NCBI GenBank assembly: GCA_000934665.2
Contig: JYFJ02000077.1
Location: forward strand, 1-64,000
Reading direction: 5' to 3'
DNA length: 64,000 nucleotides
Source of the DNA: Catajapyx aquilonaris
Taxonomy: Eukaryota
The translations under genes and the position numbers were made by a program. Positions 9,954 to 62,741 of the stretch are shown here, in pieces; positions within the stretch are counted from its first letter, which is position 1, and every line of letters begins with the position of its first letter. The notes below the pieces were generated by a model. It worked only from the letters and a program-made list of their open reading frames with translations, did no database searches and was not told the origin of the DNA.

Positions 9954-10088
9954 CTGATGCCCGATTGCACCAACGAAATTACACATTTGATGGCTCCTAA
10001 CAGATCATTAGCACACGTTAAAAGGGTTCCTAACGATCCATTAGGAGCTATCGAATCGGTGATTTCAGTTGGTGCAATCGGGCACCAG
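9954..10088. mobile_element. Fold-back MITE, possibly PIF/Harbinger-like
   Basis: TGCCCGATTGCACCAAC...GTTGGTGCAATCGGGCA are perfect inverted ends, and imperfect complementarity continues inward (GCTCCTAA/TTAGGAGC). Confidence 0.7.
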
Positions 10089-26100: not shown

Positions 26101-26354
26101 AGCCCGAGGGTACTTCTTCGGGCCTTCTGAACGCTTCAGCTCAAGTCTTTGGCATCTTGCTGACAATGGGCACTGGATGGCTGCTGAGCACTTTTAACGA
26201 CATTACTGCCAACCTGACTTTGGCTAGCGTTCTGCTGGCTGGGTCTCTTGTCACTCTTCTCATCAAGACAGAGCTAAAGAGACAAAAGGCACAAACCCAA
26301 GGGACCACACCTGAGGATGAAGCTCAGGCCAAAGTAATGGTACCCAAGGTTTGA
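20128..26354 (+). CDS. FLVCR: FLVCR-family (SLC49) MFS transporter, paralog A (canonical choline/ethanolamine transporter-like). Exons 20128-20457, 23727-23951, 24358-24499, 24764-24969, 25051-25154, 25820-25930, 26039-26354
   Basis: Family motifs [58 protein letters not shown] and [39 protein letters not shown] introns keep the frame. Confidence 0.93.
21154..22998 (-). CDS. Intronless divergent ionotropic receptor (IR, variant iGluR chemoreceptor family), nested antisense in an FLVCR-A intron
   Basis: 614-aa ORF with a signal peptide, LAQKLNFT and LDFTQPY S1 motifs, KPYTLLVW at the M1 entry, RLFFASW...YSSKL pore-lining helix, IDSLNEL at the S2 start and [11 protein letters not shown]...VFVLE as the last TM. 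This is the typical IR architecture. Confidence 0.88.
   Translation of the reverse strand: MAIKTVPSFLCLILPALVYSQIFLRPVDQPNFLTFIRNVTDTFSRNCTLLFITDSRFEPSIYFWSGLLINPIQVLRVSGKNGFSLSFPVAQASHVCRVNFVFCDVDTLRPVVKRLREYYLGRISRQFYVFITTGDVQQLLGHRSVKKFRFKLGLGDRAYSWCPYCNEGNGTAVPIPSHLPYLFPPWPVNFHLRPVYIRNPVDLHSTLAQKLNFTPVIIPIYPLNDTVEPLMTMNHQIQISKLDFTQPYVIASAKFAVAAPEGRFSWTVVLKPYTLLVWFLLIFLLAAASVLVWIHQRRSDKIYRASYVTVLSQYLLPYMFTQSTNLPQHADHGIPRLFFASWFIFCLVSSTMYSSKLTQVMIVPDTSGIDSLNELINLGYDFGVEKVEHKIFSQLLERSPFPQYSAMSTTLRLNPDLVSCLARALTTPNYACMSIDERLMYYSYLNFTDWRGRSKHQLVGSDLPPLYLAISMNRDDLHFEEVHQFVLNYVAFGFNQKEDEACFEDALSIGVRASMKNVTDEELQKGLHVRGAIRYLNQLEGPFILLVMGFMLATVVFVLEVIANWHKPLSYQPVCWVRSTFNRKGLTGTVLQGIDSGNERQLDSYKSNYRTIVN
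23032..23038 (-). promoter_or_regulatory. TATA box of the nested IR gene
   Basis: Minus strand reads GGTATATAAGGAGC ~35 bp upstream of the ATG at 22998. Confidence 0.55.
24527..24672. repeat. Long imperfect inverted repeat (fold-back element) in an FLVCR-A intron
   Basis: TGTCACAAAGAAATTTCAACCAAAATTATCCTGGATGTATGCAACTATCAGCACTC pairs with GAGTGCTGATGGTTGCATAGCGTCAGGATAGATTTTGGCGAATTTTTCTTTTGACA. Confidence 0.8.
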
Positions 26355-29300: not shown

Positions 29301-29847
29301 TATATACCAGTGAGCTCCATTTGGGATGAAAGTGACGTATTCACTGTGTTTTTGGAGCTGAGGCACAGCTGGATAAAAATCTGCCTCGACGTTGAATTTT
29401 TGTATTATAATACCATCACGTGACAAAAGGTTCACACATGGAACATTTGCAACTGAGTCATAAAACCTTAAAGACATAATTATACGCTAAAAAACTATAA
29501 AATATTTTGACTCCATCAATAATACTTTGGCTTCTATAAAGCATGCTATAAAGCATTGAAAGTGTCCATTTCTTTTATAATAACCCTGTATAACAGGTGT
29601 TTTGCAGGCAGCATACAGCTGAAAAAGTTATTGCTATAAGTTAGCATAATAATTAGGCTGCGGACCTTAAAGGGGGCCATGCAATTACTCTAATGCTCTC
29701 TGCTAATCTTTGCTCTCTAATGCTCATCATCTAAACCATTCAGGAAAGTTTGCTGCCGATGTCAGCATGGACACGCGATTAAATAACTAGACCTATTTGT
29801 TGCAATAAATAACTTAATGTGCTAATTATAATATCGGAATCTATATA

Positions 29848-30323: not shown

Positions 30324-31943
30324 TACGTATTTCGAGAGCTATAAGCTCGCCAATGTGAAAGTGAGAGTGTGCACACCGAAAGATATATGGCACATGACAG
30401 AACTTCCGGGTTTAGTCGCCGGATGTGTGGTTGCTGATAATGACCTCATTTTGCACAACTCATAAAATAAAATAGAATAGGCCGGAGTTTCAGTAATATT
30501 CTGACAAGACACTACTTGTAAGGTAAGGTAATCAGCAGTTATTGAATATAACTTCCGCACTTTGTGTCTGTGGACTCTTCAATGCATAATTTTTCCAGTA
30601 TTCACATTTAGCCTACATCGACGTTAGACAATATTAACACCTCACTGAAAAATTTACTTCGCTATTGAAGAAAACTGAGGTTTCGTGATAGTTATCGGCA
30701 GAGTATGTGTAGCACGTGCATGTGGTATCAGTGGAAAACTTCACGTACCGCACAGCATTTCGGAAATGAGCATATTATGGAACAACAAGTTTGTTATTTC
30801 CCGCACTGCCTTTTTGTCATTCGTGACGTTAAAGTAGCAGCTGGGATTCAAAGCCCATTGTGGTCACTCCACACATAACTCCCCATTTCACGACACATCT
30901 TTTCCTTATCAGAAAATCCGCCCCGTCCAAACTATCATTGCATTTGATAGTTCCAGTCTTCATCATGACATTGAAAGGTGAGTGCTTTGTTGTCGAATCT
31001 GCCAGTTCTGCGCGCAATTGTCTGCTTATAAAGCCTATAAGTGTGCAAAAAATATCGCTTACATTTTACTTTGAATATTTGGTTGCTCATAATGCACTTG
31101 AGTTCTCGATAAGAGTGTTATCTTACATGTGAAAATCGTGATAAGTGCGAATTCCTGGATTAGGTACCGGTATGTCATAATGCACGTGGGTTTTTCCCTT
31201 ATTAATCACTGCTTCGGTGCTGCAGTTACACGTGTAATATATGCTTGATGTACTGGATCGACAGAAAAGTGCATCTGATATTAACAACCTTCAAGGACGT
31301 TAATGAGCTGATAGATGTTATGAGGCTGAATCAGTGCTCGTGGAATTGACTGAGAGAACAACCTTGACATCTGGGAAAAATCTTGACTAGCTACTAAATT
31401 AGTGTTGCATGGAACGAGCCGAGCTTTTATAGTTTTTTTTTCCGGATTCCAACCTGTTACGTATTCCAAACGACATGGTTACATCTTTGTCGTAGTTATG
31501 TAGTCCTGTCACCGTGACTGTATTTCTTCTGTGCAAAGGCGATGCTGCGAGTAATTATTTAGAAAATACGTATTGTGTTTCGAATTAATCCTTTCAACAG
31601 TTAGTACAATTATATTGCCAGAAGAAACCATATTTTCGAAATCTCCAGATTCTGCAACGCAATAAATTGCCATCTGGTTCTCGAGTTCAAGGCTAGCTGC
31701 ATTTATAACCTCAATGAGTGTGCCCAAAAATTATACTTGAGCCTAATGGAACTTTCCAGTTATGGATTGCAACGCTCCAATTCACCTCTACCATTATACG
31801 TTACATATAGTTCAATAACATGTATAGCCGCATATTCGCACATGTAGTCTAGGCACTCCTAAAATTGCGTGCAGCTTCTGACAAACAGGCTGTACTGTAT
31901 GATTATACAGTTACGTTAGCCTAGTAAGGTAACTCACTGCAAA

Positions 31944-34618
31944 ATGTCCACTGCTCTGCACAATGGTATGGCAATGAATAGCAATGAGAAATCTGCACAA
32001 AACGACATCAACATCGTGTAATGACCTGTACGCTACATTTATGATCATATTCCAGGTGGCTCATTAGCTGAAGCAAATGGAGCCAAGGCGGTTTCAAACT
32101 CTCAAGCGTGCTCTCAAGTCTCAATCAATTCCTGCAGTGCCCAGGATGCGACTGAATTCAAGGTGTACAAAAGGAGGTGGGTTATGTTGGCCCTGTTTTG
32201 CATGACATCAGTGGCGAATGCCTTTCATTGGGTACAATATGCCATCATCGTGGGAGTCATTACAAAGTATTATAACGTGTCACCTTTCACTGTCGATTGG
32301 CTCTCCATGATTTACATGCTGACATACATTGTCTTCCTCATCCCAGGAGAAATGCTGCAGAAAAAGGTGCGAAAGCGTAATTTTTTAAAGCTGACTTTTT
32401 GACATTCGAATTTTTAAATTTCAGGGATTGAGACTGATTGTACTTTTGGCCAGTATTGGAACCACTCTAGGCGCATGGATCAAAGTGGGTTCGTTGGCGA
32501 CGGACCGGTTTTATGTCACGTTCATTGGACAGTCAGTGATTGCTGTGTCGCAGATATTCATTTTGGGGATTCCTCCGCGACTGGCAGCAGTGTGGTTTGG
32601 TCCTGATCAAATCTCAACAGCGTGTTCAATCGGTGTTTTTGGAAATCAGGTAAAAAAATTACACACACTGATTGCATTATCGGCTATTGTGATATGAGCA
32701 CCAATTTCAAACATTTAAATAAATTATGCTTAAGTATTAGTTCGTATACGGTGGACCAAGTAAGGAATACGTAATATATAACGAGTTACGCTTTTAACCC
32801 CAAACACCTAATGTTTTCAAAACATTTTTTTACCCGTGGCGATTTCCATGAAGAAGTAAGTGCTCAAGGACTGCGGCCGTCCACTTGTTTGTCATATGAT
32901 AAAATTATCGGTGCGTAATGATGTCATTCACGGTCACCCACCTCCTATGTAGCATTTGAATCCGTCACAGACATGACCATGGATATGCCAGTAAACATTG
33001 TGCTTAGAATAGGACCCTGACCAGCCAGTGCAATGATAAAAACTTGAAATAATTACCAGTGTGCAAAAAAGTGCCAATGTTTAGTAAGGAGTGCTCACGT
33101 CCTATGCAACGTATTACAGGAAGTACAGTATGTAGGCTTTCCTCATTTATTAAAAATTTTCAATCTGCAAAAGGTATACTCAAACAGCTCTAAAATCATT
33201 GTCTTTTTTACAGTTTGGAATCGCAGCAGGATTCCTGATCCCACCTTTGATAGTGGCAGACGACACCAGCACACCTGATATTGAAAACGGGCTGTCCATT
33301 ATGTTTTATTCCGTTGCTGGTTTCAACACTTTCCTGTCACTGCTGGTGATATGTTTCTTCCGAAATGAACCACCGACGCCTCCAAGTCCAGCCAGAGCTG
33401 CGGCCATTGAAGAAAATGTTCCTATCAAGCAGTCTCTCCTTAACCTCGCCACAAACAGATCCTATGTCATTTTACTCATCACCTATGGCCTCAACGTGGG
33501 CGTCTTTTATGCTGTGTCAACTCTTCTGAGTCAGCTTGTCCATCCACACTTTCCAGTAGGTTAAGTTCGTAATGTTGCAGTGTGCTAATCACAGCTTTAC
33601 TCAACTCGCGATCCACCATTGATTCAAGAGGTATTAATCACAGTCACAAAAATTATTGCTGGTCGATAAAAAATAATGTTATCATTCCAATATGAACAAA
33701 TGGTATGATACAATATTACCGGCAGATAGACCAGTGATTGGAAAAAGTTGAGAATAGTTGCTTTGCTTCATATGTCTAACACTTTGTTATTCAATTTTTC
33801 CAGCACAATGACAAAGATATTGGAGTTATCGGCTTGTGTATAGTTTTATGTGGAATGGTCGGATCAGTAGTGTGTGGTGTTTGGCTAGACAAGACACGCA
33901 AATATAGGTAAGTGGGAGTCAAAATTATGTCTCTTTGAAATAGATAATACTTTACACAATACAGAAAATTCACATCACACCTCTACGGATTCACTGTGTA
34001 GCATACAGTACATTATTTATGAAACACATGCAGCACAGATTTGCTTATTTAGCTAATGGAATGCTAATTCCAGCAATGTTGTGGTAAACCAATTTAAATA
34101 ATGAATCATATTAATATTACAGGCAAACCATTTTGGCTGTGTACATATTGTCATTCCTGGGAATGATTGCATTCGCTTTAACTCTCCTAGTTCCGCACAT
34201 TGCCGTGGTGTACGTAACAGCCTCTCTATTAGGGTAAGTTTGTCTTCATTTCTTGACATAACTTTCCAATCCTACGTACAATTTCTCTCATACAATTACG
34301 GTAACAATTTCCAGATTTTTCATGACTGGTTACCTTCCGCTGGGCTTTGAATTTGCCTCGGAAATAACCTACCCGGAACCTGAAAGCACATCGTCTGGAC
34401 TTCTCAACGTGTCAGCGAACCTGTTCGGCATAATATTTACCACCGCCGGAGGTCAAATTCTGGAACACTTTGGTGACCTGGCAACCAACATGGCTTTGTC
34501 TGGCTCCCTGTTTGTGGGATCTGTCTTGACAGCCTTTATCAAAGGTGACCTGAGGAGACAAGAGGCGCAGAGAGGTGTCACTAATGCACCTTCAGTTCAA
34601 GTTCTGGCTACTCCTTAG
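31944..34618 (+). CDS. FLVCR: FLVCR-family transporter, paralog B. Exons 31944-31965 (tentative), 32056-32366, 32425-32649, 33214-33555, 33804-33907, 34123-34233, 34315-34618
   Basis: [50 protein letters not shown] and [29 protein letters not shown], with an intact spliced frame. Confidence 0.9.
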
Positions 34619-36387
34619 TGCAGTTGTCTTTTATTACCAATTATGATCATTTTATCATCGAAATTGTCTTAACCACGCCCCATATGTATTTAATAGTTCC
34701 TGTAAAAATATTCTGAGAATTAGTTTGTGATATAAAGCTATGTAAGATATCTAGCAGTAACTATGACAGCTACCTTTTTGGTATAACATTTGTGAAGTGA
34801 AAGAGTTTTGTACTGCATGTTACTATGAGATTGTACAGGGTGTACATGAAGAACGCGACGAGATTTAAATATCATTTTGCGGAGATTTATTGCTAGGCCA
34901 AAATTTAAGCAATATGTCTCACATTCATTTAAGTCAAGTAAAATATTTTGTGATTTTGAACCTCGTCCAGGCTTCCACAATGTAAAAAAAAAGCATGTAC
35001 TGTACACTGACTAAGCAAACATTCAAATCTATTCGCGTTTCTTTATGGGCACTCTATTTTTTGTGCAGAAGTTACGTGGTTGTTAAATTGTGTATACACT
35101 TAAACAATACAGGTATCTCATAATGAGAAGTTATAGGTCTAATGATATAATATTTATAATTATTTTATTGGCAATATTGGCCTGTTTCAAAGTTTTTATT
35201 CTAAGATCATTAAAACCACAATAGTCCACAATGTCGAATTCGTTACCAAATTACAATAAGTATTCAAATATTCACTGCCCCGAATAATTATTTCAAAGGT
35301 CAATTGTGCACTGAGAACATTTTGTAATATTTTCATAATACTGTAGGCATTGTGCATGGATAGGCTCTGTCAGCTTCCCCAGGTCAAGAAGTTCAGTTAG
35401 CCTATTACACTGATCACTTCAGCAGTTACAGTACATGTATCCTACTAAAAGAACGGCAATAATAATTACAAGTGAATGATATTCTGATTGTTGTTTCCAA
35501 CGGGTTTTTATTCTCTTTCAAACTGATTGCTGGGTAAAACAATCAGTAACCTTTACCATATAGGCCTACTCATCTCTTGAACTGTGAACTTGGGCAATGA
35601 ACCACTATGTGTGGCACGTCGATATTGATATTAGAATCTACAGTTCGTCTGTAGTTATCGCTATTGGCAAGCTTCCTTTTGATATCCAATATGATGAATG
35701 ATCCCTGTGGAAATGTTATTGACCTCGATTGGCTGGGATTAGCCAGCCCTGTCTGTGCAGGCTTTTAGATTCACATCACAAGAAGACGTGCATACGTAAT
35801 ATCTCTCGAAAGTGAGTAGCAAGCACGTAATACCTTCGACCTCAAATATTGGTAGCCTGTGGATTTAAAATACGCCATTCTTTTGCCCTGAAGGAAGGTG
35901 GCATGTGTAATACGGGAAGGGAATGATTTATTCTGCATGTACTCCTGCTCCGAAAGCATGAAGCACAGCAGGACCACAGCGACACTTGTGACGACTACCA
36001 AAACAGCACAAAACTTTTTGTCAAGTGCATTAAGCGTTATACTCGTATTAATGACGACAAATTGCTCACGGTCAGTGTCTCTTTAATTGGCTCGATACAA
36101 CCCTTTATTGTTTTGTACGACGCTTGCTGCGATTAACCACTCTACAATTTGAATAACGCAATAAGCGTTTAGGTATATATGTTATCACGTGATCTGTATT
36201 ACCTGATAATTGATTGCCGATACTGAGATTGTGTTTTACCAATATCAGCTAAGATTGTTTTCATGGATGACCTGTCCCCTCATGAGAGGAGAGTTCTCAA
36301 GTCTTGGGACGTGCCATATCATCACCAGTTCACCGTTATAAGTGACTTAAATAACCGCAAATCTCACATTGCCTTGGAGTATTCAAG

Positions 36388-36988
36388 ATGACTGTGAAAG
36401 GTAGGCCAATTTATAACCCCTGTGACCCTTGGTAATGCGAAATCTCGTGCAAGTATTTTTCTGTCACATTTAGGGTGTCGTATTTAACAGCATACAATGT
36501 TACCCATCTCAACCAGTCAAGATTTTCGACGTTTCTGTCATTAGAATTATGCCGTGTCGGTAATTATTCTAATTAAGCAAGCATTTCGTAGGGCAGTAGG
36601 AAACAATGAATGTCCATATATAAACTCGCATGTGAATAAGGTGCACTATAATAATTATGCGGGGAGGAGGAGTGGTGCTGCGGTAACGTATGCGCCCACG
36701 GATGTTAAGGTCCCGGGTTCGACCCCAACCCAGGGACACCCCCTTCATCTCGTGCAGAGTTCAGGGTCACATCTGGCTTCGTCTCGGGTGGTATTTCCTA
36801 CAGACTAAACCACCCGGGGGAGTTCACTAAAAATGGCCACGTTTAAGACATTGCACTGCACCTTGCACATCCCCTCCTGTAATCCTGCCCGTGGGCCCGG
36901 GCGCTTCAATAATTAGGTTCCAAATATGTACATCGTACAAATAAAGGTCCGTGCTACATGCCGAGAAGGCCAAGCACTACCCGGATAT

Positions 36989-37063
<75 letters not shown>

Positions 37064-40000
37064 TTGATGTGATATGCTGTAAGTAAGTACGAAGCATATT
37101 TTCGGTATCAGTAATATTTCACAATAAATTATTATGCAAAGATAAGGTAATACAGTATAGTAAAACTGGAAAATAACTATAATGCAATTGATACCGGTAC
37201 ATTAATTATTACAATAAACGAAGTAGGTATTTAGGTATTTTAAAGGGCGACACGGTGGCCGAGTGGTTAGCGCCGCAGCCTTCCACCTCTAAGGTCCCGA
37301 GTTCGATCCCCGGGTCGGACGGAGGATACTTATGTGGATAGAGTTTCGATGGGTTCTCTCCGTGTTCGCGTGGGTTTTCTCGGGGTTCTCCCGTTTCCTC
37401 CCACTATCAAAATCCATCACATTACAGGCAAATGATTAAAGTCGGGTATTCAAAAGATGATCCCCTAAGAGGCCCAAGGGGCATATCACGGGGTATCCAT
37501 TATTAATGTATTTAGGTATTTTACGTATGTTGTATGTTGTTTATGAGGCATTTTTTTCATTATTTTGCGACAGTAGACAATAACTTACCTGTTCACAGGG
37601 GACCACTGCATGACAACTAACAAGAACCACCACCAGCAGCAGATAAAAAGAGCTCACAACTTCTACGAGCGACTTTAGTCTAATTTCGTAATTATGAATA
37701 TGTGCTTCTTAATTATGCCGCTACACAGGTTCGCGTATTAATAAATAACAGTCTACACCGGACCTCCCCTTTCGACCAATGCATACTATACCGACAGGCA
37801 GCTAAATTAGTAACGTTTTGGAGTTGACAGTACACTTATCCAAGGATTTAACAAGGTGATAGCATGAAAACTACTCTACCTATCACAGAAGTGCGCTTAG
37901 CAATGTAAACGGAATCACGTGTTAAAGTCACGAATAAACAAGATTGTTGTACTTCAATATCGGTGTAATCGCGAGCAATATCAAGTAAGTGTTGCAGAAG
38001 CTGACAGAGAAATAAGGGGAATGGAGGTAAAAAGAGGCAGAGGAAATATGCGAAAGTGCACAGACAAAAATGGAAAGGAAGAGAATGTAGGAATATTTGA
38101 ATGGGACTCTGCAGCAGGTCTGTATCAGAAAAGTAATTATCCTCCTGAGACCCCTGGTACAGTATACTGTACCTTTGTTTTTTCCAGCGCCTTCTGACTA
38201 ACTCAAACGCGTAAAAAAACAAAAACAAAGGTACAGTATACTGTACTCCGGGTCTCAGGAGGTTATAGAACTTTACAGACATAAGGCATTCCACGATTTC
38301 CATGCATTAATCGGTTGATGCAGGCGTGACAGAAAAATACTAAAAGTAATTACTGCAGTGAAAGTATCTGAATTGGTGTCTCTATGCCACATACACTCAC
38401 CAAAGTTTCTCAATATTTCAGAAGTCACAGATGTCACCAGCATCAGTTCCACGACACCTTCCCCCAATTTGTCCATTGATTCTGATAGCCATGAAAGTCC
38501 AGTGGAATACAAAGTGTACAAGAGGCGATGGTTAATGCTTTTCTTATTTTCGGTTACGTCTGGAGCTAATGCATTTCCAGGGATAGCATTCTCAATTGTT
38601 GTTGACACTGTCACAGAGTTTTACGATGTCTCACATTTGTCCGTGGACTGGCTCTCAATGATTTACATGCTGGTATACATACTGTTCCTAGTTCCTGGAG
38701 AACTGCTTCAGAAAAAGGTATGTTGGCATCGTGGTTCATCACATTATAACAGAAGCAAATTTCGAATTTTACTCTATACATCCTATTCTTGCCAAACGGG
38801 TCTTAGAAGCGTGTATATACCGCATGATAATGTGCTCTTTTATTCTAGGGACTCAGGCTTATTGTGCTTTTAGCAAGTTTAGGCACAACTGCAGGTGCAT
38901 GGATCAGAATTGGTTCGTTGGCACCTAACAGGTTTTATGTCAACTTTATTGGCCAGAGCTTCATTGCTCTGTCACAAATATTTGTTTTGGCCATACCCCC
39001 TCGCCTGGCTGCCGTTTGGTTTGGCCCAAAGCAAGTGTCTACAGCTTGTTCAATAGGTGTCTTCGGTAACCAGGTAGACTCTGAGACATTTTTTTATTGC
39101 TGCAGATTGTGGAACTTTCTCCTCACTCGAGGTAATTGTTTTTCTAGCTTGGAGTGGCCGTTGCATTCCTGATTCCGCCTCTGATAGTGCCAAGCGACAC
39201 CCCACCATCCGAGGTTCAAACTAAGCTGTCTATTCTCCTATATTCATTCGCCGTATTCAATACCATACTCTCTCTTCTGGTGATATTTTGTTTCCAAAAT
39301 GAGCCACCCACACCCCCGAGCCAGGCCAGGGCTGCAGCCATGGAAGAAGATGCCATTTCACTCAAGCAATCAATCATTAACTTATTCAAAAACCGCTCTT
39401 ATGTTCTTTTATTTTTCACGTACGGAGTGAACGCAGGAATTTTCTACTCAATTTCGACTCTTCTGGGACAGCTCATTCTTCCTCATTTTCCGGTAAGATG
39501 TGACTTATGCAACTACCACTAACGTCCGAACCATCAGAGGCTTCAGATATAGTAGACTACTTGTAGTTACTCTAAACTTATTGTTAGTAATGATGGATTC
39601 TGACTTATTCTGGTTTTGTGGAATTAATACATAAATTAAATTAATACCGATTATAATAGTTCTGCTAACGGTGGACCATTAGTTCATTTCATAAAGGAGG
39701 TAAATTTATTGTTACAGCATAATGATCGTGACGCAGGTATAATAGGACTTCTCATGGTTTTATTCGGAATGGCTGGTTCGGTCCTCTGTGGTATTTGGCT
39801 CGATAGGACCCGTAAATACAAGTAAGTACACAATATTTATAATGGTAAAGTCGGTCAATTTTTCTCAATGTCAATTTCGAGTCACGGGAGACATAATATA
39901 TGAGACGGCAGGTGGCCCTTGCATGTTACACACTGTAATGCAGCCAATTTTTTTGATGAAAATCTGCTTGAGTGCTGGCGCCACCTAGTACCGCCGAGTT

Positions 40001-40549
40001 TATTTGGTGTTTAAAGTAATTCGAGAATCAACATTTACTTTTCAGGTTAACCATGCTGATCGTTTACATATTTTCATTTCTGGGTATGATTGCTTTTGCA
40101 CTCACACTATTTATTCCGCACATTTCTGTGGTTTACGTAACGGCCTGCATACTTGGGTACGTGCTAAAGTACTAGTATACACCACATTTTGCCGGTGACG
40201 CCCACACATTAAAGGCAGCTAATGTATATTTCTTGTTTGCAGATTTTTTATGACTGGTTACTTTCCACTGGCTATGGAACTCGCCTCCGAAATCACGTAC
40301 CCTGAACCAGAGAGCACGTCCTCTGGACTTCTAAACGTGTGCTCCAACTTCTGCGGAATTGTATTTACCTTTATTGCTAGTCAACTGCTAGCGCACTTGC
40401 CCAAGCACACCGGAGACCTCGCTGTCAACATGTCCTTTGCTGGTGCGCTCTTCCTGGGAGTTGTTCTGAGTGCCTTCATTAAGAGTGATCTGAAAAGACA
40501 AAATATGGAGGAATGTAGTCCTAATCAGCCCAAATCTATTCAAAATTAA
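36388..40549 (+). CDS. FLVCR: FLVCR-family transporter, paralog C. Exons 36388-36400 (tentative), 38422-38717, 38849-39073, 39148-39492, 39718-39821, 40046-40156, 40243-40549
   Basis: [44 protein letters not shown] and [22 protein letters not shown]. The first exon ATG ACT GTG AAA G|GTAGGC is phase-compatible with the acceptor at 38421 and conserved in D. An alternative start exon is 38048-38132. Confidence 0.88.
36660..37063 (+). mobile_element. tRNA-derived SINE with (TAA)n/(TTA)n tail
   Basis: A-box-like TGGTGCTGCGG and B-box GGTTCGACCCC, followed by a simple-repeat tail. It is absent from the duplicate unit, which reads ATAATTATG|TTGATGTGATATG at ~42532-42553. Confidence 0.8.
37243..37507 (+). 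mobile_element. tRNA-derived SINE with V-domain-like core and 16-bp TSD
   Basis: A box TGGCCGAGTGG, B box GAGTTCGATCC and core GTTCTCTCCGTGTTCGCGTGGGTTTTCTCGGGGTTCTCCCGTTTCCTCCCAC. The TSD GTATTTAGGTATTTTA lies at 37227-37242 and 37508-37523, and the empty site is in the duplicate at ~42700. Confidence 0.9.
38141..38262. mobile_element. 122-bp MITE, piggyBac-like ends with TTAT TSD
   Basis: TTAT|CCTCCTGAGACCC..GTACAGTATACTGTACCTTTGTTTTT...AAAAACAAAGGTACAGTATACTGTAC..GGGTCTCAGGAGG|TTAT. Absent at the equivalent position of the duplicate (~43035). Confidence 0.8.
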
Positions 40550-41955
40550 ATTATACTTCAATATTTCTGCAGATGTTTCTGTGCCCAAATTGACGAGCCG
40601 AGGAGTGGGAACATGGGAGAGTTGATGGAATAATAACTCCTGGCGATGTATATATAAAAAAAGGTCGGGGGCATACAAAAATGTAAAGAAAGCCCGATTC
40701 TGAACTGATGGAGTAGTTCAAATTCGGCCCAGAAGGGATTTATCCCATCAACTTAGACAGAAAAACAAGTTGCATGTGTAGAATCAGTGGCACTTGCAGC
40801 TCGTTACCACAATGGAAGTCGAATTCGTTACTAGATTACGATAAGTATTCAAATATTCACTGCCCCGAATAATTTCAAAGGTTAATAATTGTGCACTGAG
40901 CATCACATTTGTGTTATTTCTTCATAATACTGTAGGCCTTTTACTGTTGTGCATGGCTGGGCCCTGTCCGCTTCCCCAGGTCAAGAAGTGCAGTTAGCCT
41001 ATTAGACTGATCACTTCAGCAGTTACAGTACATGGATCATATTAAAAGAATGGCAATAATAATAACAAGTGAATCATGTCCTGATTGTTGTTTCCAATGG
41101 GTTTTTATTCTCTTTCAAACTGGTTGCTGGGTAAAACAATCAGTAACCTTTACCATAGGCCTACTCATCTAGTTTGAACTGTGAGCTTGGGCAATGAACC
41201 ACTATGTGTGGCACGTCGATATTTACATAAGAACTGCCTACAGACCTACAGTTCGTCTGTATAGTTATCGCTATTGGCAAGCTTCCTTTTGATATCCAAT
41301 ATGATGTCATTGACCTCGATTGGCTGGGATTAGCCAGCTCTGTCTGTGCAGGCTTTCAGATGCACATCACAAGAAGAGAAGTAATATCTGCAAGCACGTA
41401 ATACCTGCGACCTCAAATATTTGTAGCCCATGTGCATTTAAAATACGCCATTCTTTCGCCCTGAAGGAAGGTGGCATGTGTACGACGGGAAGGGAATGAT
41501 TTATTCTGCATGTATCTGCTCCGAAAGCACAAAGCACAGCAGGACCACAGCGACACTTGTGACAACTACCAAAACTGCATCAAACATTTTGTCAGGTGCA
41601 TCAAGCGGTATACAGTATATACTCGTATTAATGAGTTCTTCGGTTTCTCTTTAAAGTTATTGGCTCGATACGACCCTTTATTTTTTTGTACGACGCTAGC
41701 TGCGATTAATCTACTCTACCATTTGAATACCGCAATAACCGTTTAGGTATGTTATCACGCGATCAATATTACTTGATAATTGTTGATACTGAGATTGTAT
41801 TTTACCAATATCAGCTAAGATTGTTTTCATGGATGACCTGTCCCCTCATGAGAGAAGAGTTCTCATGTCTTGCGACGTGCCATTTCATCACCATCAGTTC
41901 ACCGATGTAAGTGACCTAAACAACCGCAAATCTCACATTGCCTTCAGAATTCAAG

Positions 41956-44900
41956 ATGGCTGCGAAAGGTAAGCCCCTTTATAACCCCTGAGACGCTTGG
42001 TAATGCAAAATCTCGTGCAAGGTATTTTTCTGTCATGTTTATAGCAATGGGTGTATACATTTAGGGTGTCTCGTATTTAACAGCATTAAATGTTACCCAT
42101 TTCGACCAGTCAATATTTTCAACTTTTCTGTCATTAGAACTATATGCCGTGTCGCAGTGGCGGATCCAGCACAAGTTTCCGGGGGGGGGTTCTTGGCTTC
42201 AGGGATATTACAGTACCGGTACTGTATCTCATATGGTTTTTTTTTACTTAGCTTAAATACACCAAAATTCTCTCGCAGGCTAGCACAGACAGTGATTTAC
42301 TCATGGGCACCATGCCACATGTCCCCAGTCGAGTGAATGGAGCATTACATTACATGCAAAACACTTTCCCGACAATTACCTTTGCTTTCCCCGGTTCCCA
42401 TTTTGCCGATTTTTTGGTTTTCTCGCCCCCCCCNCCGGTTCCGCCACTGAAGTGTCGGCATGCATTTCGTATAGGGCAGTAGGAAACAATGAATGTCCAT
42501 GTAAACTAGCGTGTGAATAAGGTGCACTATAATAATTATGTTGATGTGATATGCTGTCTGACGAGTAAGTACGAAGCATATTTTTGGTGCCAGTAATAAT
42601 AAGTGACGATAGAGTATTATCCCAAGATAAGGTAATATAGTCAAACCGGAAAATAACTATAATGCAATGTTGATGATACATTAATTACAATAGACGAAGC
42701 AGGTATTTTACGTATGTTGGATGCTGTATCGAATGTTTATCAGGCTTTTTTTTTTCTTCTTCTGCGACAGTAGCCAATAACTTACCAGTTCACCTGGGTA
42801 TAGCAATGTAAACCGAATCACGTGTTAAAGTCACGAATAAACAAGATTGTTGCACTTCAATATCGGTGTAATCGCTAGCATTATCAAGTAAGTGTTGTAG
42901 AAGGTGAAAGAGAAATAAGGGGAATGGAGGCCTCAGAGGAAATATGCGAAAGTGCACAGACGAAAATGTAAAGGACGAGAATGTAGGAATATTGGAATGG
43001 GACTCTGCAGCAGGCCCGTATCAGAAAAGTAATCATCAAACTTTATCGACATAAATAAGGCATTCCAAGAATTACATGCATTAATACGTTGATGCAAACG
43101 TGACAAGAAAATACTAAAAATAATTACTGCAGTGAAAGTGTCAGAATTTTAGTGTCTCTGTGCCATATACACTCACCAGCGTTTCTTAATATTTCAGAAG
43201 TCACAGATGTCACCAGCATCAGTTCCACGACACCTTCGCCCAATTTGTCCACTGATTCTGATAGCCATGAAAGTCCAGTGGAATACAAAGTGTACAAGAG
43301 GCGATGGTTAATGCTTTTCCTATTCTCGGTTACGTCTGCAGCTAATGCAATTCCAGGGATAACATTCTCAATTGTTGTTGACACTGTCACAGAGTTTTAC
43401 GATGTCTCACCTTTGTCCGTGGACTGGCTCTCTATGATTTACATGCTGGTATACATACTGTTCCTAGTTCCTGGAGAACTGCTTCAGAAAAAGGTATGTT
43501 CACATCGTGGCACGTCACATAATAACAGAAGCACTATTTCGCATTTTACTCTGCAGCCCATTCTTGCAAAAACAAACTTTCCTGCACTATGATTTTACTC
43601 CGGGGGAGTTTACAATGTGATAAATCATTTTAAGCTGTATACCACCCTGCCTATTCGCTTGTCCTGGCACCATGTGATTTCTACCTCTTCCCTAAAATGA
43701 AATTTGGGTAGAAAATGAGGCATTTTGACTCCACTAGAGAGATCTAAGCAAAATCCCAGCAGGTGTTGAACACACTACTGTTCGCCAATTTTTGGGGGGT
43801 GCTTCCAAAAATGGGAAATTCGTTGGAATCGTTGTATACGTGCCCAAAGTTTGAAGGTGGCAGTAGAAATTAGGACTTACAGTAAATATTAATGTTTTTA
43901 TGAACAAATTCTCGGAAATTTTTGGTAGCACCCCCCCCCCTCCCCGCCACCTGTGCGTAATTTTGGTCCATCTCTATACCACACAAGTGACATCGATAGA
44001 GCTTCAAAACACAGTAAAGTGCATACAGTATATGTAACTGTTTTCGTTTTCAACATGGGTCGAAAATGGGGCCTGGGAGGGGTATCGTTCCTCTTTTGTT
44101 TCTCTCCCCTTCTCGTGATTTTTGCGTCATCTGCATACCCACACAAATGTATACATAGACGGAGCTTCAAAACTAGGTAAAAGTCATCATTGGACCCTCT
44201 CCAGTTTTCGAATAAAACAGACAAGAAGTTTTAACCCTTTTTGCAGGGGGTCCTATTATACTGTTCAACCCCTGTATGTGCTCTTTTATTCTAGGGACTC
44301 AGGCTTATTGTGCTTCTAGCAAGTTTAGGCACAACTATAGGTGCCTGGATCAGAATAGGTTCGTTGGCACCTAACAGGTTTTATGTCAACTTTATTGGCC
44401 AGAGCTTTATTGCTCTGGCATCAATCTTTGTTTTGGCCATACCCCCTCGCCTGGCTGCCGTTTGGTTTGGCCCAAAGCAAGTGTCTACAGCATGTTCAAT
44501 AGGCGTCTTCGGTAACCAGGTAGACACTGAGACATTTCTTATTGCTGCAGATTGTGGAACTTTCTACTGACTCGAGATAATTGTTTTTCTAGCTTGGAGT
44601 GGCCGTTGCATTCCTGATTCCGCCTCTGATAGTGCCAAGCGACACCCCGCCATCCAAGGTTCAAACTAAGCTGTCTATTCTCCTATACTCATTCGCCATA
44701 TTCAGTACCATATTCACTCTTCTGGTGATATTTTGTTTCCAAAATGAGCCACCTACACCCCCCAGCCAGGCCAGGGCTGCAGCCATGGAAGAAGATGCCA
44801 TTTCACTCAAGCAATCAATCATTAACTTATTCAAAAATCGTTCCTATGTTCTTTTGTTTTTCGCGTACGGAGTGAACGCAGGAATTTTCTACTCACTTAC

Positions 44901-45975
44901 GACTCTTCTGGGACAGTTAATTCTTCCTCATTTTCCGGTAAGATGCGACGTATGCAACTATCACCAATGTCCTCTTGAGATATACTGTCTTGTATAGTTA
45001 TCCGAAACTTACGAATAATGGATTCTGACGTTTTGTGAAATTATTACAAAAATTAAATTAATAACATACTCTTAAAATCGTTCTGATGAAGGTAGATCAT
45101 TCGTTCATTTCATAAATGATGTGAATTTACTGTTGCAGCATAATGATCGTGACGCAGGTATAATAGGACTCATCATGGTTTTATTCGGAATGGCTGGTTC
45201 GGTCCTCTGTGGTATTTGGCTCGATAGGACCCGCAAATACAAGTAAGTACACAATATTCATAATAATGGTAAAGTCAGCATTTTTCTCAATGTCAATTTC
45301 GAGTCGCGAAAGACAAATGCGACGGCAGGTGGCTCTTGCATGTTACACACTGTAATGCAGCCTATTTTTTGAAGAAAACCTGCTTGAGTGCTGGCGCCAC
45401 CTAGTACTGTCGAGTTCATTTGATTCTTTAAAAAAGTAATTTAAGAACTGATCAACATTTACTTTTCAGGTTAACCATGCTGATCGTTTACATATTTTCA
45501 TTTCTGGGGACGATTGCTTTTGGACTCACACTATTTATTCCGCACATTTCTGTGGTTTACGTAACGTCCTGCATACTTGGGTACGTGCTAAAGTACTAGT
45601 ATACACCACATTTTGCCGGTGACTCCCACATATATTAAAGGCAGCTAATGTATATTTCTTGCTTTCAGATTTTTTATGACTGGTTACTTTCCACTGGCTA
45701 TGGAACTCTCCTCCGAAATCACGTACCCTGAACCAGAGAGCACGTCCTCTGGCCTGATAAACGTGTGCTCAAACTTCCTCGGACTAGTGTTTACCTTTAT
45801 TGCCAGCCAACTGCTCGCGCACTTGCCCAAGCACACTGGAGACCTCGCCGTCAACATGTTCTTTGCTGGTGCGCTCTTCCTGGGAGTTGTTCTGAGTGTC
45901 TTCATTAAGAGTGATCTGAAAAGACAAAATATGGAGGAATGTAGTCCTAATCAGCCCAAATCTATTCAAAATTAG
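41956..45975 (+). CDS. FLVCR: FLVCR-family transporter, paralog D (recent duplicate of C). Exons 41956-41968 (tentative), 43198-43493, 44295-44519, 44593-44937, 45139-45242, 45470-45580, 45669-45975
   Basis: Same exon lengths as C and an intact frame. The first exon is ATG GCT GCG AAA G|GTAAGC, downstream of an Inr-like TCAGTT near 41894. Confidence 0.88.
42155..42449. mobile_element. hAT-like MITE containing an assembly N at 42434
   Basis: TIRs CAGTGGCGGA...TCCGCCACTG with poly-G/poly-C subtermini, flanked by CCGTGTCG and AAGTGTCG (6/8). Absent from unit 1 (~36557). Confidence 0.75.
43570..44272. other. ~700-bp sequence unique to the D intron relative to C, probably a transposon remnant
   Basis: The equivalent intron is 131 bp in C (38718-38848) and 801 bp in D (43494-44294). 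The intron ends align but the middle does not. Confidence 0.55.
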
Positions 45976-48900
45976 GTTATTATTCAATATTTATGCAATT
46001 AGTTGTTTCTCTGCCCAAATTGACTATCGGAAGATGGGGAAGTTGGGTCTGGAGTTCAAATTCGGTCCTGTCCTCCCTCTCTGATCGTCAACTTGGTCAG
46101 AATAACAAGGTGTGTATATGAATCAGTGTGGCACTTGCCTCTCGTGTTGGCCAATCTTTTTTTTTTAATTATTATGCATGAGGGAGTGTTGAGCGTCAAT
46201 ACTGCAGGTGCTAATCATGACTGCGTCACTTGAACTGCTTTGTGCAGGTTATCACTCTATGGTAATGACACCTTACTCAGTACTGTCGATAAATGTCCGC
46301 CCGTGACTGTCACGAACATGGGCTGATCACCATCTTCATTCACGGGCTCTCGGAAGAGCCTTGAGGGTGACTGCGAGAGGGTTAATATTGTGACGTGTTA
46401 TCCTTTCTTCTTCGAAAACATCACTATTCATTGGGTCATAATTTGAACTTCAGAATCAGAAAATGGCTGTACCCAATTAGTGACATCATCAGTTAAGAAA
46501 ATCACGCGTAAATTCTGACGTAAAATTAATTCTCACCTAGATTTCTAGCATTAAATTAATTTTATAGCGCAAGATTTTTTTTTCATCTGACAATAATACA
46601 GTTGTTACCAATTCCTTGGCACGGCACACTGACTGACACTTTAGAGCATGTTTATGTGCATAAGAATGCCAAGTACGTAATACGTCGTAGTTCACCGATC
46701 TTCATGGCGTTGTTAAGCAGGATAAGCATCGTTTTGCGTGCAGTACTCTCTTCTGAATGGTACGAAAATCATGTGCGACATGAAAGAAGCTTTGAGTTCA
46801 AGGTAGTTAGCGTACGTCAGTGGCATAGTTGTGGGAGTCATCCTGGCAAAAGAACGCGACGTGTGTTTTCATGTGGAACGTAATGCGACATGCAGCCAAA
46901 CAGCGAGTCTCATTATTCTGAAAAATATGTAAGAGTAATAAAAGGGTGTACCCTTCCGTAAGAGGAATATATTGTTCTTCGGCTTGCACATTTGAATTTT
47001 TGATTCTCATGTGGCCAACATTTCCTCACAGGTATGGTTAGTGATGTTTCCGTACTGGGACAAGGTCGACCTTTCGTCCTTTTCTATTCAAAACTAATGG
47101 GATGCCATAAGCAAAGAGGAAAGGTGTAGTCCCAGGCACTTGACGATTAACGAGTCGGTAGAGCGTGTATCCTAAAAGTGTCGCAACTACACATCAAGTG
47201 CAGACAAGCTAAGTGTAAGTCTCGCAATCTACAGTAGAAATTTACAGTGCCACTTAAACTTGGAAATTACCAGAAAATGTTTTACTGGCAAATTACTGTA
47301 TTTACAGTCCAGATTATGCAAATGGCAAGAACATTGTGTAATAAAAATTAGCTGAAAAATTCGCGTGTCTTTTAAATCATTGTCCCATTAATTCTCTTTG
47401 AAATCTAACAGGATTGCAATTTTTTACACTGTGACATTTTCCTTAGAATAGAACGTTATACTGTTCCAGGAAGACAGCTAACACGTATTAGCTTCAGGCC
47501 CATGCATTACTGTATATTATGTAAGGCAAATATAAACGTGGCACAAGGTTCTATCATAACTATATATTGGTGTTTCCGTATGTTAATGTGTTCAAAATAT
47601 CCGAAAGGCTTATCACAACTGCGCACTTAACGTTTTTGTATACGCACAAAGTCAAGGCCCACGCATAACATTTGAAAATAAATTACAAGGTTTGCTTGTG
47701 ACAGGTTATTTATTGGTGCAATACGGTATAATCGTGCTGTGCCCCAAGCTGTCACTCCACCCATCTGCCGCATCCTTCTGGTCCAATTTAAATATTGATG
47801 AAGGTTTTTTGGATGTAAGATGTGGGAAGAACTTTATAGTCCCTGAAACAAGCACTTACACTTATTACATGAAAAGCGCGTAGAATATTATGTCACTGGT
47901 TGTAATATTGCGTAAAGGGCTCGAAAGCATAATATAAATAGAGTAAAGGCAAGTGTCTTGTTTTACTAAGAAGATTGGCCATATCTGCCTGGACCAATAG
48001 TAAAATAGTCTAAAATAGTCGGAAAATGTGCAACAAAAGCAATAATTATTACCTAACTACTAATATTACTTTAAAATAATTTGAAACGCAGTTGACCTAC
48101 TGTCTCATCTAACTGCGACACACATTGCAGATGCAGTCTGAAGCTGAGGACAAAAGGCTTTCTGTTGCATTGTACCCAGACGAGGTGAGTAAGATCATAA
48201 TGATAGTGCAAAAATGTAGAGGAAAAAATGCAACGGAAGCGGCATGAAGCCCATGAAAGCCTAGCGTGTTTCAAAGACGACACCGATTTAAATCTCAAAT
48301 TTCACGCCTTCCACTTGACCAAGGCCAAGATAAAGGAGCATGACCTTTTTGGATTCAGAAGGACACTCCATTTTTGAAAATTTTGTTCTTTCTCCCAGCA
48401 CCTCCCTGGGGAAAATCATGAACTGTTTACTGCAGGGTACGTGTCAGTGTAAACGACTTTATGGCAACGCAGGCCGTATACTTGACGATAGGTGACCGCC
48501 CCTTATTTCTATTCTTCCTCGTCAAGGTTCCTGTTAAGAATGCCATTATCGTTATAATTACGCAAGGGGAAAGAACTGGTCACGTGCTGATGAGCAGGTA
48601 CGTTGCCGCTTTAAAATAAATGGAATAGCTTCAAGCACTTAACGCTGCAAGTGACATTGGGGGACCAAAATAATATACCAAAGTACGAAGAGTGACAATG
48701 TTGAGGATGCTAATGGCTTGCAGTGCTCTTTCAGCCTACCTCTATTGTGCTTGCTATACTGTCAGGCATTGAAAATAATGAAGTATTACGTGACAAGAAG
48801 CATCTTCAATGAACGACTCATAATCTGTTAGCAATTCATTCAATGTCACATAAGACCCGTTGTATAAATATGAGTTAGCGGAGTAGTGAACTAGGGAAAC

Positions 48901-62700: not shown

Positions 62701-62741
62701 AGGCCGCCGAGGCTGAGAAAGGCAAAGAGGAGAAGGTCTAA
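56730..62741 (+). CDS. FLVCR: FLVCR-family transporter, paralog E (most divergent in C-terminal half). Exons 56730(start uncertain)-57290, 58423-58647, 59093-59237, 59607-59916, 60481-60591, 62438-62741
   Basis: [48 protein letters not shown] and [22 protein letters not shown], with a long low-complexity N-terminus and an intact spliced frame. Confidence 0.9.

What the first reader, a model, noticed from the sequence alone, without database searches (positions are those of the whole stretch)
38545..43370. Paralogs C and D lost the cation-pi tryptophan (FQW changed to FPG/IPG)
The near-invariant QWIQY of TM1 is replaced by PGIAF in C (~38577) and PGITF in D (~43353). This removes the aromatic residue that binds the quaternary amine and adds a Pro-Gly helix kink. 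Both genes remain frame-intact with conserved splice sites, which argues against simple decay. Inference: a larger or non-cationic substrate, or a non-transport role.
Basis: partly seen in the sequence, partly recalled or inferred. Interest (0 to 1): 0.75.

Follow-up and report, generated by a model that had tools for sequence, protein, structure and literature searches.

The report
Choline transporter copies lacking key tryptophan
Two neighbouring, intact copies of an arthropod choline-transporter gene have lost the tryptophan that every tested relative needs to hold choline, and a second bulky residue at the other end of the pocket, yet they are still kept by selection, so they probably carry some other, larger molecule.

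Summary
Observation confirmed. C (38577-38582) and D (43353-43358) read Pro-Gly where FLVCR1 has Q124-W125, so the change is W125G. Trp is kept in 159 of 162 and 103 of 103 outside TM1 copies (no Gly in either set) and in 26 of 28 copies modelled in this genome; only C and D lack it. Both genes are complete, real copies rather than alleles, have no coding indels, and C/D dN/dS is 0.29 (CI 0.17-0.50), like Trp-keeping young pairs. New here: both also carry G446A/F447M at the floor of the cavity (104 of 104 invariant outside) while keeping Y153, N245, F348, Y349 and the cytoplasmic gate; D alone lost Q214 and evolves faster. Best reading (0.55): enlarged, uncharged pocket, a bulkier non-choline solute, rocker-switch intact. 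Not shown: the substrate, the helix kink, positive selection, spliced expression (only low-depth unspliced C pieces in one RNA-like run). The scan had noted pocket rewiring in another FLVCR array of this genome, but no look-alike of this Trp-less motif on other DNA. A new variant of a known family, in one species so far.

The parts
36388..36400 (+). Gene C, probable start micro-exon (ATG, four codons, phase-1 donor)
   Evidence: Inferred: like-placed ATG..AAAG|GT exons precede B, C and D and join in frame; no read spans the joint
38422..38717 (+). Gene C coding exon with TM1-TM2
38577..38591 (+). C: P-G-I-A-F replacing Q124-W125-I126-Q127-Y128; W125G codon at 38580-38582
38849..39073 (+). Gene C exon, TM3-TM5 start; Q214 (38975-38977), R223 and N245 kept
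39148..39492 (+). Gene C exon, TM5-TM7; G252A; F348 and Y349 kept (39442-39447); N356G
39718..39821 (+). Gene C exon, TM8
40046..40156 (+). Gene C exon, TM9-TM10 start
   Evidence: covered by an X5 piece that keeps the next intron
40243..40549 (+). Gene C last exon, TM10-TM12 and stop; L443F, G446A, F447M (40262-40276), Q471N; E459 kept
41956..41968 (+). Gene D, probable start micro-exon
   Evidence: Inferred as for C
43198..43493 (+). Gene D coding exon with TM1-TM2
43350..43367 (+). D: I-P-G-I-T-F replacing F123 to Y128; W125G codon at 43356-43358
44295..44519 (+). Gene D exon; Q214S at 44421-44423 (D only)
44593..44937 (+). Gene D exon, TM5-TM7; F348 and Y349 kept; T340A
45139..45242 (+). 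Gene D exon, TM8
45470..45580 (+). Gene D exon, TM9-TM10 start; M413T
45669..45975 (+). Gene D last exon; L443F, G446A, F447M, A450S, L466I, Q471N
35226..46047 (+). Tandem duplication unit, about 35226-40617 against 40807-46047, 83-91% alike in its main blocks
   Evidence: self-blastn; unique flanks at single-copy depth in run X1
30965..34618 (+). Gene B, sister of C/D; keeps W125; 7 of 8 core pocket residues; spliced in run X5
20128..26354 (+). Gene A, the only modelled copy with all 8 core choline-pocket residues
56946..62741 (+). Gene E, keeps W125 but F348M, Y349N, Q471Y

Best explanation
C and D are young tandem duplicates of one gene that split long ago from B inside a lineage-wide expansion of FLVCR1/2-type (SLC49) transporters. 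On the line leading to C/D the indole that lids the binding site from outside (W125) became Gly and the phenyl that floors the cavity from inside (F447) became Met, with repacking of TM1, TM5, TM10 and TM11 around them (shown in sequence). The aromatic wall (Y153, F348, Y349), the polar residues N121, N245 and in C Q214, and the cytoplasmic gate (R223, E459) stayed, and no charge was added to the pocket (shown). Inferred: the protein still folds and cycles by the MFS rocker switch, no longer traps choline or ethanolamine, and moves a bulkier, neutral or hydrophobic solute (or a larger amine held by the remaining tyrosines) down its gradient, while A keeps the choline job. C is the conserved copy; D, with Q214S and most of the later changes, is diverging further or relaxing.
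For: W125 kept in 159 of 162, 103 of 103 and 26 of 28 in-genome copies. G446 and F447 kept in 104 of 104 outside proteins; mouse FLVCR2 F446 defines the base of the outward cavity (10.1101/2023.10.05.561059). W125A abolishes uptake of both substrates (PMC10557757), while in simulation it frees choline but leaves the global motions intact (PMC12569663). Selection after the loss: C/D dN/dS 0.29, bootstrap CI 0.17-0.50, against 0.36 and 0.33 in two Trp-keeping young pairs; codon model 0.34, value 1 rejected at p=8e-5; 0 indels in 1388 coding bases against 18 in 950 non-coding. Summed side-chain volume at 13 published pocket sites is 251 (C) and 306 (D) cubic angstrom below A, against 30 for B and 33 for E (residue volumes recalled), for a native cavity of 513-579. 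The family in this genome tolerates pocket change: Y349 kept in 4 of 24 and Q214 in 7 of 27 copies. Other SLC49 members carry pyridoxine (PMC9719028) or heme (preprint 10.64898/2026.07.31.742071).
Against: No substrate, transport or full-length structure was tested. Changes are not significantly enriched at pocket sites (3 of 15 against 16 of 125, p=0.43) and the TM1 cluster is borderline (best p=0.056 of three window sizes). Whether the C/D stem had a raised dN/dS depends on the model: 0.105, equal to background, with free lengths, 0.19 against 0.054 for B under a synonymous clock; neither exceeds 1. The X5 pieces on C are shallow (depth 3-5) and unspliced, one keeping intron 5, which would end the protein early. 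Human variants at Q124, Y128 and L443 are disease alleles, so these sites can also simply damage the protein. No second species with the motif was found.
Confidence: 0.55

Rival explanations
1. Relaxed or decaying copies: the tryptophan loss disabled a redundant choline carrier; what selection remains only guards against a misfolded membrane protein, or D alone is already on its way to a pseudogene.
For: The C/D line changed protein faster than B (48 against 19 unique changes with outgroup A, p=5e-4; p=0.004, 0.027 and 0.13 with E, c1 and c2) at equal four-fold change (18 against 16). D has 15 derived residues against 1 in C, 9 unresolved; clock model gives D 0.67; D=1 rejected only at p=0.03. 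C pieces in X5 are unspliced. Pocket enrichment not significant.
Against: Joint dN/dS 0.29-0.34, the same as Trp-keeping young pairs; no coding indel or stop where about 19 frame-breaking indels were expected; all splice sites kept; stem value 1 rejected at p=2e-6; synonymous changes are also skewed to D (11 against 3, 18 unresolved), so D's excess is partly rate.
Confidence: 0.2
2. Still a choline/ethanolamine-type amine carrier, at lower affinity or higher flux, using Y153, F348 and Y349 in place of W125.
For: C keeps 6 of 8 core pocket residues, more than any copy except A and B; in simulation of W125A choline is passed to the TM7 tyrosine.
Against: W125A brings uptake of both substrates to knockout level in FLVCR1 and lowers it significantly in both human proteins; D also lacks Q214, needed for ethanolamine; no Gly in 265 outside TM1 copies.
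Confidence: 0.13
3. Non-transport role (scaffold, sensor, partner of another paralogue) or an ungated leak pore, since the outer lid and the inner floor are both reduced.
For: Both aromatic gates are smaller; the outer gate pair N133/N356 is D/G in C and D; W125 acts as gatekeeper in simulation.
Against: R223, E459, D147, N121, N245, Y153 and Y349 are kept, which a scaffold would not obviously need; B, which is spliced and keeps W125, has also changed N133 and N356.
Confidence: 0.09
4. Assembly artefact: C and D are two alleles placed in tandem, or the codons are sequencing errors.
For: One X1 contig joins D-type exon letters to the C-type intron; two other copies in this assembly look allelic (dS 0.04 and 0.02).
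Against: Flanks unique to C and to D both lie at depth about 33, the single-copy depth; no other letter at the Pro-Gly codons; the same codons stand in both copies, which differ by dS 0.11 and by several insertions. X1 may be the sample the window came from, so it is not independent.
Confidence: 0.03

Closest known systems
Human FLVCR1 (SLC49A1) and human/mouse FLVCR2 (SLC49A2), choline/ethanolamine uniporters; PDB 8ubw, 8qcs, 8qcx, 8vzn, 9qu4
   Same: The exons searched match only these chains in the PDB at E below 1e-9; N121, Y153, M154, N245, F348, Y349, R223, E459 kept; Q214 kept in C.
   Different: W125G, Q124P, Q127A/T, Y128F, G252A, N356G, L443F, G446A, F447M, Q471N; Q214S in D; one-residue deletion at the end of TM2 shared with B; four-residue insertion before TM12.
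Insect and crustacean FLVCR orthologues (named 'choline/ethanolamine transporter FLVCR1/flvcr2a' or 'MFS-type transporter C09D4.1'; Drosophila CG1358; Rhodnius FLVCR)
   Same: Nearest named proteins, about 52-54% identical to C at best and 63-64% to A.
   Different: All 103 that cover TM1 keep W125 and all 104 that cover TM10 keep G446 and F447. C/D group with B inside a clade made of this genome's own copies (moderate support).
SLC49A3 / C. elegans HRG-13, HRG-14 (proposed heme exporters) and SLC49A4/DIRC2 (lysosomal pyridoxine exporter)
   Same: Same family, non-choline substrates; precedent for substrate change on this scaffold.
   Different: C/D descend from the FLVCR1/2 branch. Whether SLC49A3/A4 keep the TM1 tryptophan could not be read (figure not held); one distant unnamed sequence, P0119, keeps it.
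FLVCR-like expansions in the velvet mite Dinothrombium tinctorium (47, 27 and 21 members)
   Same: Lineage-specific FLVCR expansion in an arthropod (PMC6275457, passages).
   Different: The passages seen give no pocket analysis; those proteins are only 25-30% identical to FLVCR.

Membership tests
SLC49 / FLVCR family (MFS) | Sequence homology to FLVCR1/2 along the whole membrane domain | tested here: met
   C exons match FLVCR1/2 chains at E 5e-12 to 6e-21 (B exon); tree places C/D with B among FLVCR1/2-type proteins
SLC49 / FLVCR family (MFS) | Twelve-helix MFS fold | tested here: inconclusive
   Alignment is collinear over the whole core (416 of 418 profile columns); hydropathy scan found 9-10 segments in C/D and 8 in B; single exons reach Pfam MFS only below cut-off; no full-length model could be made
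SLC49 / FLVCR family (MFS) | Cytoplasmic gate residues (FLVCR2 R200/E435 = FLVCR1 R223/E459) and TM2 aspartate D147 | tested here: met
FLVCR1/2-type choline/ethanolamine uniporter | TM1 tryptophan W125 for the cation-pi contact | tested here: not met
   Gly in C and D
FLVCR1/2-type choline/ethanolamine uniporter | Aromatic cage Y153, F348, Y349 | tested here: met
FLVCR1/2-type choline/ethanolamine uniporter | Hydroxyl-binding Q214, N245, Q471 | tested here: not met
   Q471N in both (shared with B); Q214 kept in C, Ser in D; N245 kept
FLVCR1/2-type choline/ethanolamine uniporter | Measured choline or ethanolamine uptake | not testable with these tools
   needs an uptake assay
SLC49A3/HRG-14-type heme exporter | Descent from the SLC49A3 branch and two aromatics that sandwich heme | tested here: inconclusive
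   Descent is from the FLVCR1/2 branch; the sandwiching residues were not mapped, no SLC49A3 sequence with a name was in hand
Pseudogene | Frameshift, stop, lost splice site or dN/dS near 1 | tested here: not met
   D alone is only weakly separated from 1 (p=0.03)

The most novel reading that the evidence does not exclude
C is a natural re-build of the choline uniporter into a carrier for a large neutral or hydrophobic molecule (a porphyrin or heme, a vitamin, or a lineage-specific metabolite), made by removing just the outer lid (W125) and the inner floor (F447) while keeping the rest of the site. It would be the first FLVCR1/2-branch protein shown to work without the tryptophan and would give a minimal set of changes that switches this scaffold between choline and a bulky solute, bearing directly on the long dispute over heme versus choline as FLVCR substrate.
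Probability: 0.15. Interest if true: 0.8.

Novelty: new variant of a known kind. Interest (0 to 1): 0.48.

Why it matters
W125 is the one residue described as essential in the FLVCR structure and mutagenesis papers read here, and it is the one pocket residue that even this genome's heavily rewired copies keep. A pair that has lost it and is still under purifying selection is a ready-made natural experiment: A (full pocket), B (W kept, 7 of 8), C (W lost, 6 of 8) and D (W and Q214 lost) form a graded series from one locus with which to ask what the SLC49 scaffold carries without cation-pi capture. The reach is limited by its being one species, with unknown substrate and thin expression evidence.

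Tried and rejected
Kink test: AlphaFold models of the exon-1 hairpin gave an unbroken helix for C and for B, but neither model found FLVCR in the PDB and B's model misses the kink known in native TM1, so the test is void, not negative. A full-length model of C or D could not be made, because the folding tool takes no spliced product; cavity volume was only estimated from side-chain sizes. Pocket enrichment and TM1 clustering tests were not significant. A local double frameshift as origin of the motif was considered by eye from the codons; it needs no fewer events than five substitutions and was not pursued. No RNA holder listed. In X5 no listed piece covers the TM1 exon of C or the exons of D (16 pieces of over 6,000 are shown); this is no evidence either way. 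Searches for the motif in other species found none: (9 hits of 74 candidates; best 150 of 660; 2 of 5 candidates; best 120 of 424), Atlas (unnamed clusters, not followed), earlier findings by sequence and words. Two other start exons were weighed and dropped: 38021/38048-38117, whose donor reads GC in D and whose longer frame is broken there, and 31944-31965 for B, which has no counterpart in C/D. Pfam gave no family for the TM1 exons. No tRNA or Rfam match in the window. Paper searches listed no report of a natural W125-less FLVCR; only listings and passages were seen, and subscription papers are not covered.
Full report
What is there. The window holds five FLVCR/SLC49 genes on the + strand: A 20128-26354, B 32056-34618, C 38422-40549, D 43198-45975 and E 56946-62741, all open and with GT-AG introns (reproduced by a spliced aligner). 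B, C and D lack a start codon in their first large exon; a 13-base exon of like form and place (30965, 36388, 41956) joins in frame and gives proteins of 469, 466 and 466 residues. This start is inferred; no read spans it. C and D lie in a tandem duplication of about 5.3 kb. Flanks unique to each copy have depth about 33 in DNA run X1, like single-copy DNA beside them, so they are two genes and not two alleles (X1 may be the source sample). The nearest named proteins are insect and crustacean FLVCRs and a nested gene resembles arthropod ionotropic receptors, so the animal is probably an arthropod; it was not identified further.

The observation. Against human FLVCR1 chains the TM1 alignment is ungapped: C has P124 G125 I126 A127 F128, D has I123 P124 G125 I126 T127 F128. 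W125 is kept in 159 of 162 TM1 copies (Tyr 2, Cys 1) from the best 150 of 660 hits plus the 9, a set chosen by likeness to C's own TM1; Pro at 124 occurs in 0 of 162 (one repetitive protein did not align). In an independent set chosen on exon 2 (best 120 of 424), 103 of 103 proteins that cover TM1 keep it. In this genome 27 exon-1 matches were listed, a lower bound; I modelled these and one more. W stands in 26 of 28, and the two exceptions are C and D (two of the 26 look like alleles of others; two short fragments seen were not modelled, both show W).

Why the residue matters. Passages of three structure papers place W125 over the quaternary amine (PMC11168923, and section 6; PMC10557757; 10.1101/2023.10.05.561059). 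W125A lowers choline and ethanolamine uptake to knockout level, and Q214A removes ethanolamine uptake only. In a simulation study W125A drops the escape barrier from about 4.8 to 1.9 kcal/mol and passes choline to the TM7 tyrosine, with global motions unchanged (PMC12569663, passages). Human alleles at Q124, Y128 and L443 cause disease (PMC10888986 and PMC13195507, passages).

The whole pocket. Of eight core residues (W125, Y153, M154, Q214, N245, F348, Y349, Q471) A keeps 8, B 7, C 6, D 5. Most other copies show the reverse of C/D: they keep W125 and replace the rest, often with acids (Glu at 214 in 9 of 27, Asp at 349 in 8 of 24). C and D keep Y153, M154, N245, F348, Y349 and add no charge. 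The residue matching F447 forms the base of the outward cavity in mouse FLVCR2. So lid and floor both shrank. Summed side-chain volume at 13 published pocket sites falls by 251 cubic angstrom in C and 306 in D relative to A, against 30 in B and 33 in E (volumes recalled; a crude proxy), for a native cavity of 513-579. Some changes flagged against a small panel proved ordinary in the larger one (I217V in 62 of 120, Ser at 219 in 100 of 120). R223, E459 and D147 of the gates are kept; the outer pair N133/N356 is D/G, and is changed in B as well (one paper numbers the second residue 359, the chain alignment gives 356).

Selection. C and D share the Gly, so their divergence postdates the loss. They differ by 33 synonymous and 30 non-synonymous changes over 461 codons, dN/dS 0.29; bootstrap CI 0.17-0.50, against 0.36 (a4/a5) and 0.33 (a1/e1) for young Trp-keeping pairs and 0.08-0.31 for older ones. 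A codon model gives 0.34 and rejects 1 at p=8e-5. There are no indels in 1388 coding bases against 18, 13 of frame-breaking length, in 950 aligned non-coding bases (introns 2-5 and two upstream blocks; intron 1 left out for its large insertion). The pair is therefore not a neutral relic. The split between the copies is uneven and unresolved: with B as outgroup D has 15 derived residues and C 1 (9 unresolved), but synonymous changes lean the same way (11 against 3, 18 unresolved), and other outgroups give weaker contrasts. D=1 is rejected only at p=0.03, and C alone cannot be estimated with free lengths; a clock model gives C 0.035 and D 0.67. The C/D line changed protein faster than B (p=5e-4, 0.004, 0.027, 0.13 with four outgroups) at equal four-fold change; its stem dN/dS is 0.105 or 0.19 by model, and synonymous sites to B are near saturation. 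Positive selection is not shown: pocket enrichment p=0.43, TM1 clustering p=0.056 at best.

Expression. No run is on record as RNA. Run X5 behaves as RNA, with two exact GT-AG joints in B. On C it shows two listed pieces without differences: 39823-40075 (depth 3.4) and 40046-40870 (depth 5.4), the second beginning at the first base of the exon and keeping intron 5, which would stop the frame after a few codons. These are C-specific and suggest low transcription, perhaps unspliced; a spliced C or D message is not shown.

The kink. Native TM1 is already kinked. Fragment models showed a straight helix for both C and B and did not retrieve FLVCR, so the claim is untested. That a proline one turn from the pocket bends or loosens the helix is general knowledge, not a result here.

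How it most likely works. Shown: intact genes, loss of W125 and F447, retention of the aromatic wall and cytoplasmic gate, purifying selection on the pair. Inferred: loss of choline and ethanolamine capture (strong, from mutagenesis of human proteins); continued rocker-switch cycling (moderate); a bulkier, uncharged or hydrophobic solute, or a larger amine, moved by facilitated diffusion (moderate to weak); A covering choline supply (moderate). I put 0.55 on altered-substrate transport, 0.20 on relaxation or decay, 0.13 on weak choline-type transport, 0.09 on a non-transport or leak role and 0.03 on artefact.

Comparison with what is known. C and D are members of the SLC49 family by sequence and descent and work, on this reading, like an FLVCR uniporter; they fail the test for a choline/ethanolamine carrier at W125 and Q471. 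Substrate change within SLC49 has precedent: pyridoxine for SLC49A4 (PMC9719028, passages) and heme for SLC49A3 and worm HRG-13/14 (preprint 10.64898/2026.07.31.742071, passages; its supplements were not seen). A pocket list was also read in PMC13160678 (outline and first part of the discussion). FLVCR-like expansions are reported in a velvet mite (PMC6275457, passages); Rhodnius FLVCR papers were seen as listings only. The family alignment in an extended figure of PMC10557757, which would show whether SLC49A3/A4 keep the tryptophan, is not held. Eight paper searches listed no natural W125-less FLVCR. Earlier notes of this scan describe pocket rewiring in another array of this genome and in this window, in line with my own table, made before I read them; none was found by sequence or words for this motif.

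Verdict. A real and rare substitution of the family's key residue, in intact genes under purifying selection, with a second gate loss that strengthens the larger-pocket reading. It is a new variant of a known kind, confined so far to one genome, with substrate and expression open. Interest 0.48.

Noticed in passing
window 21154-23007, minus strand, inside intron 1 of gene A: Intronless 614-residue open frame resembling a divergent arthropod ionotropic receptor (Pfam Lig_chan E 8e-7, just under cut-off; Atlas 0.98).
   Followed up: partly
G000 contigs C29, C1850, C118, C1811, C120, C7983, C9608 (L021-L036): At least 26 distinct FLVCR copies in tandem arrays; most keep W125 but replace other pocket residues, many with Glu at 214 and Asp at 349, as if cation-pi binding gave way to salt bridges.
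   Followed up: partly
window 56946-62741 (gene E): Keeps W125 but has F348M, Y349N and Q471Y; the new Tyr in TM11 may stand in for the lost TM7 tyrosine (inference).
   Followed up: no
window about 36661-36920 and 37244-37506: Two very high-copy elements (depth above 100,000 in X1) with tRNA-like internal boxes by eye, one followed by an AAT microsatellite, inserted in C's first intron and absent from D; probably SINEs. ARAGORN and Rfam found nothing.
   Followed up: no
window 38138-38265 and about 43590-44270: A self-inverted repeat element upstream of C's TM1 exon and an insertion of about 670 bases in the intron after D's TM1 exon, both high-copy.
   Followed up: no
window 38412-38859: One X1 contig carries all nine D-type letters of the TM1 exon followed by the C-type intron: a collapsed assembly bubble or gene conversion.
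   Followed up: partly
B, C and D, end of TM2 (window about 32340, 38690, 43466): Shared one-residue deletion that removes the W165 column and puts a glutamate near the cytoplasmic end of TM2.
   Followed up: no
P0010, P0012, P0022 (two named as firefly proteins): Tandem divergent FLVCR copies in other insects also keep W125 while changing Y153, N245, F348 or Y349.
   Followed up: no
window 9954-10088, 12030-12554, 28856-29591: Inverted repeats of 105-175 bases at 74-82% identity, MITE-like.
   Followed up: no
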